Shown: positions 60,365 to 60,570 of the stretch, in pieces | How the letters are laid out: each line of letters opens with the position of its first letter | Position numbering within the stretch: the first letter of the stretch is position 1 | NCBI GenBank assembly: GCA_964016885.1 | Contig: OZ024741.1 | Location: 14,942,001 to 15,006,000, forward strand | Direction: 5' to 3' | Length of the DNA: 64,000 nucleotides | From: Eledone cirrhosa | Taxonomy: Eukaryota | Translations under genes and position numbers: made by a program | Notes under the pieces: generated by a model | What the model was told of the DNA's origin: nothing | The model's input: only the letters and a program-made list of their open reading frames with translations | The model's database searches: none

Positions 60365-60570
60365 GTGAGGTTTTTTTACAAAATGAAAAATAACTGAGGT
60401 GTCCTACACGAGTGAAAGTATAAAGAAAAAAAGATGAAATCGAAAATGCAACTGGAGTGTTATTTAAAAAATATATATATATTTATTTGGTTCCTTTACC
60501 GGTTTCGCAGTTCTTCTGCTTTTCAAAAGTAGAGTTGAGATGGAGGGTCTGTGGTTTTTCTCACATCTTT
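60365..60570 (-). mobile_element. H10 element; U3-A8 variant HHR at 60494-60529
   Basis: CTT-TTGAAAA-GCAGaagaaCTGC-GAAACCGGTA^AAG. Confidence 0.8.

What the first reader, a model, noticed from the sequence alone, without database searches (positions are those of the whole stretch)
60494..60529. Natural U3-A8 hammerhead variant supported by covariation (family H10)
Seen: the core UUGAAAA replaces CUGANGA, changing both partners of the C3-G8 pair. Stem II is GCAG/CUGC here and at 51568, but GCAU/AUGC at 51361-51396 (minus). Stem I is CUU/AAG versus UUU/AAA. All three keep the palindromic ACCGGU-A site. Known: positions 3 and 8 form a Watson-Crick pair and compensatory swaps can retain activity. 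Standard CUGANGA searches would miss this family.
Basis: partly seen in the sequence, partly recalled or inferred. Interest (0 to 1): 0.75.

Follow-up and report, generated by a model that had tools for sequence, protein, structure and literature searches.

The report
Penelope hammerheads with swapped core pair
This is one of over eleven thousand identical copies of a likely self-cutting RNA motif at the end of a jumping gene; its swapped core pair is already published, but an equally abundant young sister family carries a second core change that would probably stop the cutting, which makes it testable whether these elements need to cut at all.

Summary
The motif is real, on the minus strand: a minimal type I hammerhead with a U3-A8 core and a palindromic stem III. 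It lies in a 204-bp solo end-fragment of a Neptune-type Penelope-like retrotransposon; the exact 30-mer occurs 11,539 times in the genome. U3-A8 is the family's master state, not decay. The 3-8 pair itself does not covary within the family (0 of 62 non-U3 copies have G8), but stems I and II covary across related U3-A8 families. Natural U3-A8 is published (Perreault 2011; Cervera and de la Pena 2014, same UUGAAAA core in a Schistosoma element), and this scan noted it before in other repeats of this genome, so the headline is known. That A13C is the master state of a young autonomous sister family (11,267 motif copies, 97 of the first 100 GCAA). Either A13C is tolerated or cleavage is dispensable. 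Both families also have an ORF1 and a probable -1 frameshift into RT-endonuclease. Cleavage and expression are untested.

The parts
60494..60529 (-). Minimal type I hammerhead motif, family A: stem I CUU/AAG, core U3-U4-G5-A6-A7-A8-A9 (60526-60520), stem II GCAG/CUGC with 5-nt loop, G12-A13-A14-A15.1 (60506-60503), predicted cut between A17 (60497) and 60496
   Evidence: 11,539 exact copies of the central 30-mer
60498..60503 (-). Palindrome ACCGGU (A15.1 to U16.1), predicted to form stem III between two molecules
   Evidence: cofold pair probabilities 0.92-1.0; kept in related families
60365..60568 (-). Solo, 5'-truncated pLTR-end fragment of Penelope-like family A between (TA)n tracts; starts at the family's common 5' end, lacks the upstream TATAAAA and any ORF
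   Evidence: full element L147 and L052
51558..51594 (+). Family A hammerhead copy with A9U and a one-base loop insertion (a mutated copy)
51520..51689 (+). pLTR-end fragment of family A holding that copy, 85% identical to the 60365-60568 copy
51361..51396 (-). Family B hammerhead motif: UUU UUGAAAA GCAU UAGAA AUGC GCAA CCGG UA AAA; U3-A8 plus C13, the master state of family B
   Evidence: full element L303
51211..51437 (-). Solo pLTR-end fragment of sister family B between (TA)n tracts
49754..49883 (-). Shorter family A 3'-end fragment without the hammerhead
62534..62741 (.). Two opposed family A 3'-end fragments without the hammerhead (62534-62642 and 62695-62741)

Best explanation
The 36 bases are a minimal hammerhead motif with a U3-A8 core in the terminal repeat of an abundant Neptune-type Penelope-like retrotransposon, which likely cuts only slowly and only when two copies pair through the ACCGGU palindrome, and whose cut is probably not required for the element to insert. 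Shown: the motif sits in both pLTRs of full-length elements with ORF1 and an RT-CxxC-GIY-YIG ORF2; U3-A8 is the master state; stems covary across related families; genomic copies mostly span the cut site. Inferred: the RNA starts about 70 nt upstream of the cut, 25-35 nt after a TATAAAA; two RNA copies (two molecules, or two pLTRs of a read-through transcript) form stem III and swap stem I strands; U3-A8 stands in for C3-G8 and keeps the 2'-OH of nucleotide 8 in place; cutting after A17 would trim read-through RNA; reverse transcription primed in (TA)n starts at two sites 79 and 143 nt past the cut and mostly copies uncut RNA. The window copy is a promoterless solo fragment and is likely inert.
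For: Anatomy matches the published PLE minimal hammerhead. Full-length L147: hammerheads at 608 and 5320, 775-aa ORF2 with RVT_1 (E 1.3e-6, just under Pfam's cut-off) and GIY-YIG (E 4.4e-6, above cut-off). 26 of 30 endonuclease loci carry an alignable copy of the motif region within their 3.4 kb. Single-site variants at 3, 8 and 13 number 62, 48 and 54 against 11,539 exact copies. 23,494 UUGANAA...GAAACCGGU motifs against 61 in the reversed control. Across 11 representatives, 7 of 8 stem I/II pairs change on both sides, 0 of 500 shuffles as high; 45 of 48 cells pair in six distinct lineages, 2 of 720 permutations as high, while flanks fall to shuffle level and N7 varies A/C/U. Dimer fold: stem III 0.92-1.0, stem II 0.75-0.85. 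Of 186 copies, 79 have 5' ends 61-80 nt before the cut and 2 begin at it; 3' ends at +79 (52) and +143 (101); DNA contigs show the same ends. A Poseidon element's hammerhead mutants still insert in vitro.
Against: No cleavage or RNA data. Stem I is 3 bp in the window copy and is not populated in the dimer fold (0.01; 0.6 in the 4-bp variant); the full hammerhead dimer is 6.8 kcal/mol above the minimum for the window copy. In one pairwise scan only the G-C swap rescued the 3-8 pair. The fourth stem II pair is a C-C mismatch in about 60 of the first 100 of 1,039 variant copies (counted by eye). Representatives were found with patterns that fix the core and palindrome, so their core identity is circular, and most loci in the end-mapping were selected for holding the motif. 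Family B has C13, which argues against a needed cut but also against activity being what conserves the fold. Family D has no Watson-Crick 3-8 pair. Clade assignment rests on motifs, not a tree.
Confidence: 0.75

Rival explanations
1. The fold is kept for a non-catalytic job (RNA dimerisation through the palindrome, or a binding site for the element's protein), and the U3-A8 families no longer cut at a meaningful rate.
For: Family B amplified to 11,267 motif copies with C13 and intact stems and palindrome; copies are 94-99% identical in RT. Family D lacks a 3-8 pair but keeps GAAACCGGUA. Copies span the cut site. Weak stem I. U3-A8 not reported as a rescue in the scan of PMC9901934.
Against: U4-G5-A6, A9, G12 and a complementary 3-8 pair stay fixed while N7 and the stems change across families whose RTs are about 50-57% identical; in GAUG/CAUC-type families non-A13 copies are 11 or fewer against 228. 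U3-A8 ribozymes are stated to be active in vitro (citing a paper not held).
Confidence: 0.2
2. Cleavage is needed for transposition and both families are active ribozymes: A13C is tolerated in a U3-A8 core, or in a B-type dimer.
For: Family B is young, autonomous and as abundant as family A, and keeps all other core positions. Rare natural core variants with residual activity exist.
Against: A13 is one of the invariant core bases (all 56 rows of the published PLE table read GAAA or AGAAA; loss of activity in A13 mutants is recalled, not read). Hammerhead mutants do not block insertion of an Anolis element in vitro. C13 is confined to one lineage.
Confidence: 0.15
3. The copies are decay products of a CUGAAGA master, or a chance or unrelated structure.
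For: One diverged family A-like copy reads CUGAAGA (L215), and 2 copies of family E have C3-G8. A MALAT1 region model scores 19.8 bits, E 0.99.
Against: 11,539 exact U3-A8 copies; 0 of 62 non-U3 copies with the family A stem have G8; 41 of 41 copies found through the endonuclease have U3 and A8; the C3-G8 cases are isolated among U3-A8 relatives; the Rfam match is far below its cut-off of 70.
Confidence: 0.01

Closest known systems
Minimal hammerheads of Penelope-like elements, including the U3-A8 variant of Schistosoma mansoni Cercyon elements (Cervera and de la Pena 2014, PMC4209133; parts 1-2 of 4 and supplement part 2 of 3 read)
   Same: Type I motif in pLTRs, short stem I, palindromic stem III, mostly solo copies and opposed pairs; U3-A8 core with about 1,300 hits; one listed PLE motif has the identical UUGAAAA core.
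   Different: 4-bp stem II without the usual extra base after A9; CCGG insert and UA cut site; at least 23,494 copies; no cephalopod row and no non-GAAA row in their table; a sister family with C13.
Natural U3-A8 core variants (Perreault et al. 2011, PMC3088659; passages read)
   Same: Compensatory U3-A8 pair found in nature, said to be active in vitro.
   Different: Those passages list A6C, A6a, U13a, U15.1-A16.1, not A13C; figure and supplements not seen.
Neptune/Nematis-type EN+ Penelope-like elements (Craig et al. 2021, PMC8557442; introduction and passages read)
   Same: RT then CX4CxxC linker then GIY-YIG with the two cysteines, pLTR partial tandems, inverted 5'-truncated arms, optional tail, (TA)n targets.
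   Different: Two overlapping ORFs with a U UUU UUA heptamer and no ATG before the RT N-terminal motifs; the paper calls canonical EN+ PLEs single-ORF, though its Fig. 1 legend mentions an optional frameshifted ORF1 for a clade that I could not see. Tail 64 nt against 30-40.
Poseidon element PAc of Anolis (PMC11167929; passages read)
   Same: Hammerhead in the pLTR, two RT start sites that define the tail, copies made from uncut RNA.
   Different: Canonical C3-G8 core, ORF starting inside the hammerhead, other clade.

Membership tests
Minimal type I hammerhead (PLE type) | Core N3-U-G-A-N-N8-A, GAAA and UH in order, with a Watson-Crick 3-8 pair | tested here: met
   UUGAAAA, GAAA, UA at 60494-60529. 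Met for family A; family B fails on A13.
Minimal type I hammerhead (PLE type) | Stems I and II, G10.1-C11.1, supported by compensatory change | tested here: met
   7 of 8 pairs change on both sides across 11 representatives; family E has U-U at 10.1-11.1.
Minimal type I hammerhead (PLE type) | Palindromic stem III allowing a dimer | tested here: met
   ACCGGU; intermolecular pairing 0.92-1.0 by computation; only 16 copies change both 15.2 and 16.2.
Minimal type I hammerhead (PLE type) | Covariation of the 3-8 pair within the lineage | tested here: not met
   Invariant U-A in 11 of 11 representatives (fixed by the search patterns) and 41 of 41 unselected copies; 0 of 62 non-U3 copies have G8. 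The swap is seen only against the canonical consensus.
Minimal type I hammerhead (PLE type) | Site-specific self-cleavage | not testable with these tools
   Needs an in vitro assay; no RNA run was listed.
Rfam hammerhead families | Match to a curated covariance model | tested here: not met
   No hammerhead model among 5 matches at E<=10 on 60440-60570.
EN+ Penelope-like element | RT with DKG motif followed by C-terminal GIY-YIG endonuclease with CCHH | tested here: met
   L147 ORF2, 775 aa; 765 relatives at E<=1e-30.
EN+ Penelope-like element | pLTR partial tandems, inverted 5'-truncated arms, optional tail | tested here: met
   L147, L052, L303; opposed pairs among the first 100 hits; two 3' ends.
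Neptune clade | CX2-5CxxC linker between RT and EN | tested here: met
   CGRSNCGTC in family A, CDRPNCGIC in family B; shared with Nematis.
Neptune clade | RT phylogeny against reference PLEs | not tested
   No named reference set was at hand; no tree built.
Non-LTR retrozyme | Non-coding tandem units of 150-600 nt, one hammerhead each | tested here: not met
   The motif belongs to a coding element; short copies are solo or opposed pairs in the loci examined. Unit size recalled.

The most novel reading that the evidence does not exclude
A young, autonomous sister family spread to more than 11,000 copies with a hammerhead whose invariant A13 is C on top of the U3-A8 swap: a natural ribozyme knockout showing that Penelope-like elements transpose without self-cleavage while keeping the dimerising fold (or else the first doubly deviant core that still cuts), in a Neptune-type lineage that makes its RT-endonuclease by a -1 ribosomal frameshift from an ORF1.
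Probability: 0.45. Interest if true: 0.62.

Novelty: new member of a known kind. Interest (0 to 1): 0.4.

Why it matters
The U3-A8 core itself adds a very large natural family to a variant known since 2011 and changes little. The matched pair of families does more: what hammerheads do for Penelope-like elements is an open question (PMC8557442 calls it unclear and raises that they may simply parasitise the elements). Two young sister families in one genome, equal in abundance, one with an intact U3-A8 core and one with C13, give a ready comparison: four short RNAs would show whether cleavage is needed or whether the core tolerates two changes. The ORF1 and probable frameshift would, if not already described, revise the single-ORF picture of EN+ elements.

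Tried and rejected
Whole-window Rfam scan: the 150 listed of 794 matches are microsatellite-driven and below cut-off; the local scan gave only chance matches. Expression: no RNA holder listed; the three runs laid were contigs of unrecorded kind, at most 2 samples of 1 study, possibly the assembly's own source. An intron starting at the G-U of the cut site (GUAAAG ... UAG) was considered: no such joint in the contigs and family B lacks the acceptor; dropped, though retained introns would not show. L031, two same-strand copies 3 kb apart, is not a full element but unrelated insertions. C3-G8 look-alikes L138, L218, L219 were followed as possible canonical sister families: L218/L219 belong to a U3-A8 family and L138 to a family without a 3-8 pair; L216, L217, L130 are junction artefacts or single mutants. 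Palindrome variants: 16 copies, no subfamily. Lower divergence of core positions in 41 unselected copies (3 of 451 against 33 of 1,394 flank cells) is a weak hint only; the core lacks CpG. ORF1: no Pfam match, no Atlas hit. A conserved frameshift-stimulating structure: a -8.7 kcal/mol hairpin in A, none in B. Papers not held: Lunse 2017, Przybilski and Hammann 2007, Martick and Scott 2006; they bear on U3-A8 rates and on whether A13 variants are known. One search opened an unrelated paper; PMC11014351, PMC12192606 and the 2026 retrozyme preprint passages had nothing on A13.

Full report
Observation. The reverse complement of 60494-60529 reads CUU UUGAAAA GCAG AAGAA CUGC GAAA CCGG UA AAG: stem I, core 3-9, stem II, G12-A15.1, a CCGG insert, U16.1-A17 and stem I. 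It is the one U3-A8 hit of a palindromic-stem-III descriptor in the window; 60 shuffles in 200-nt blocks gave 0.017 on average. Rfam has no hammerhead match here.

Master state. The window lies in a 3.0-Gb animal genome (earlier scan notes call it octopus-type, which I did not test). The central 30-mer occurs 11,539 times, the reversed control 0 times. With the rest fixed, 62 copies have another base at position 3 (35 of them C) and none of the 62 has G8; 48 have U3 with another base at 8, 23 of them G; 54 have another base at 13. These are equal, mutation-level rates near 0.5%. Of 41 copies found through the endonuclease and not through the motif, 41 have U3 and A8. UUGANAA...GAAACCGGU occurs 23,494 times (control 61), the C3-G8 counterpart 110 times (control 15, slightly narrower spacer).

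Host element. L052 and L147 hold whole elements. L147 has a hammerhead at 608, ORF1 (815-2017, about 400 aa), ORF2 (1930-4254, 775 aa) and a second hammerhead at 5320, then (TA)n. [quoted passage not shown] No tree was built. The endonuclease search had 20,548 candidates, 150 scored; 26 of its 30 loci hold an alignable motif region. The window copy (60365-60568) is a solo end fragment; neither ORF is found in the window or 10 kb on either side.

Ends. Among 186 family A copies in the fetched loci, 79 begin 61-80 nt before the predicted cut, 25-35 nt after a TATAAAA, and 2 begin at the cut; 3' ends fall at +79 (52) and +143 (101). Most of these loci were chosen for holding the motif, so the share that spans the cut (166 of 186) is biased upward, but contigs of public runs show the same 5' and 3' ends as their best-supported loose ends. 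I infer a transcription start near the 5' cluster, two reverse-transcription starts, and uncut or rejoined RNA as the usual template, as shown in vitro for an Anolis element whose hammerhead mutants still insert (PMC11167929, passages).

Covariation. Opening stem II found 228 copies of other U3-A8 families (GAUG/CAUC, GAUUG/CAAUC); about 84 of the first 100 pair at 10.2-11.2 (counted by eye). Another family has U-GCAU/AUGC-U and stem I GCAA/UUGU. In an alignment of 11 representatives, 7 of 8 stem I/II pairs change on both sides, 93.5% of cells pair, and 0 of 500 shuffles reach that; the tool warns that kinship inflates this. With six distinct lineages, 45 of 48 cells pair and 2 of 720 permutations do as well; flanks of the distant families are at shuffle level, and N7 is A, C or U. 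Caveats: the patterns fixed the core and palindrome; three representatives are single or rare copies; the family B row is one of the rare GAAA copies. Against: about 60 of the first 100 of 1,039 copies with a changed fourth stem II base read GCAC, nearly all unpaired, and family D has A or G at position 3 with no 3-8 pair.

Folding. As a monomer the hammerhead fold is unfavourable (+4.0 kcal/mol); two copies pair through ACCGGU with probability 0.92-1.0 and keep stem II (0.75-0.85), but the 3-bp stem I of the window copy is barely formed (0.01; 0.6 for the 4-bp CCUU/AAGG variant). This fits slow, dimer-dependent cutting, as reported for PLE motifs, and does not show activity.

Family B. GCAU/AUGC with GAAA occurs only 42 times; with position 13 opened it occurs 11,267 times, 97 of the first 100 reading GCAA. 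The 51361-51396 copy is therefore typical of a family whose master has C13, and the GAAA copies are at mutation level (0.4%). Family B is autonomous and young: L303 has C13 motifs in both pLTRs 4.8 kb apart, ORF1 and a 654-aa RT frame; its ORF2 is 56-57% identical to family A's, and six other B loci are 94-99% identical to it over RT DNA. Related families keep A13, so C13 is most simply a change in the B lineage. I found no natural A13C hammerhead in one search, in the published PLE table or in the Perreault passages; Lunse 2017 could not be read. That A13 changes abolish activity is recalled, not read.

Two ORFs. ORF2 has no methionine before its conserved N-terminal motifs and overlaps ORF1 in the -1 frame; T TTT TTA lies in the overlap (L147:1951-1957), exact in 8 of 11 distinct family A loci with this junction and in family B. 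Two outside ORF1 homologues end in the same FL(D/E)Q...DTRW.KP segment after a divergent stretch. A -1 frameshift is likely; a conserved stimulator was not found. Searches found no description for EN+ elements, but the Fig. 1 legend of PMC8557442 mentions an optional frameshifted ORF1 without my seeing the clade.

What is known. Perreault 2011 reports natural U3-A8 and cites in vitro activity (passages). Cervera and de la Pena 2014 report U3-A8 in Schistosoma PLEs with about 1,300 hits, palindromic helix III, dimer action and low activity, and list a PLE motif with the same UUGAAAA core. In one pairwise mutagenesis only the G-C swap rescued the pair (PMC9901934, passages). Fifteen earlier notes of this scan mention U3-A8 in this genome, on other repeats; none matched this sequence.

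Verdict. Real, correctly read as a U3-A8 hammerhead motif, and a new member of a known kind. The paired families with A13 and C13, and the probable frameshift, earn 0.4.

Noticed in passing
window 51361-51396 (-); L280-L289, L300-L305: Sister family B has C13 (GCAA) as its master state in about 11,200 copies, with intact stems and palindrome and near-intact ORFs.
   Followed up: yes
L147:815-4254, heptamer 1951-1957; L303: ORF1 (about 400-440 aa, no Pfam match, 3 outside homologues) overlaps the RT-endonuclease ORF in the -1 frame with a U UUU UUA heptamer in both families: probable programmed frameshift in an EN+ Penelope-like element.
   Followed up: partly
L220-L249 (family D): Older related repeat keeps GAAACCGGUA and a short stem II, but position 3 is mostly A or G with G8 or A8, so no Watson-Crick 3-8 pair: a second possible dead-core family.
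   Followed up: partly
window 44641-44702 (+) and 54050-54110 (-): Two canonical CUGAUGA hammerhead motifs with long stem II, palindromic AUAUAUAU stem III and 6-bp stem I, from other repeat families.
   Followed up: no
window 60821-60990, 41944-42120, 34377-34484, 53133-53235, 5577-5680: Another interspersed repeat next to the finding, often as opposed arms; the 41944 copy holds CUGAUGA...GAAAC, the 60821 copy has lost that part at an inversion junction.
   Followed up: no
L114-L143: A C3-G8 family with the same ACCGGU palindrome, UC cut site, an irregular stem II and two unpaired bases before the core; relation to families A-H not tested.
   Followed up: no
L147:4990-5260: The pLTR upstream of the hammerhead holds CCAAT, CACGTG, GGCGCGAAA and TATAAAA motifs (names of such promoter motifs recalled), a likely internal polymerase II promoter.
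   Followed up: no
window 14660-16544: Tandem repeat of about 310-bp period seen in the self-comparison.
   Followed up: no
L302:930-1406: A family A endonuclease fragment 100% identical in protein to L147, beside a family B element: very recent family A activity.
   Followed up: no
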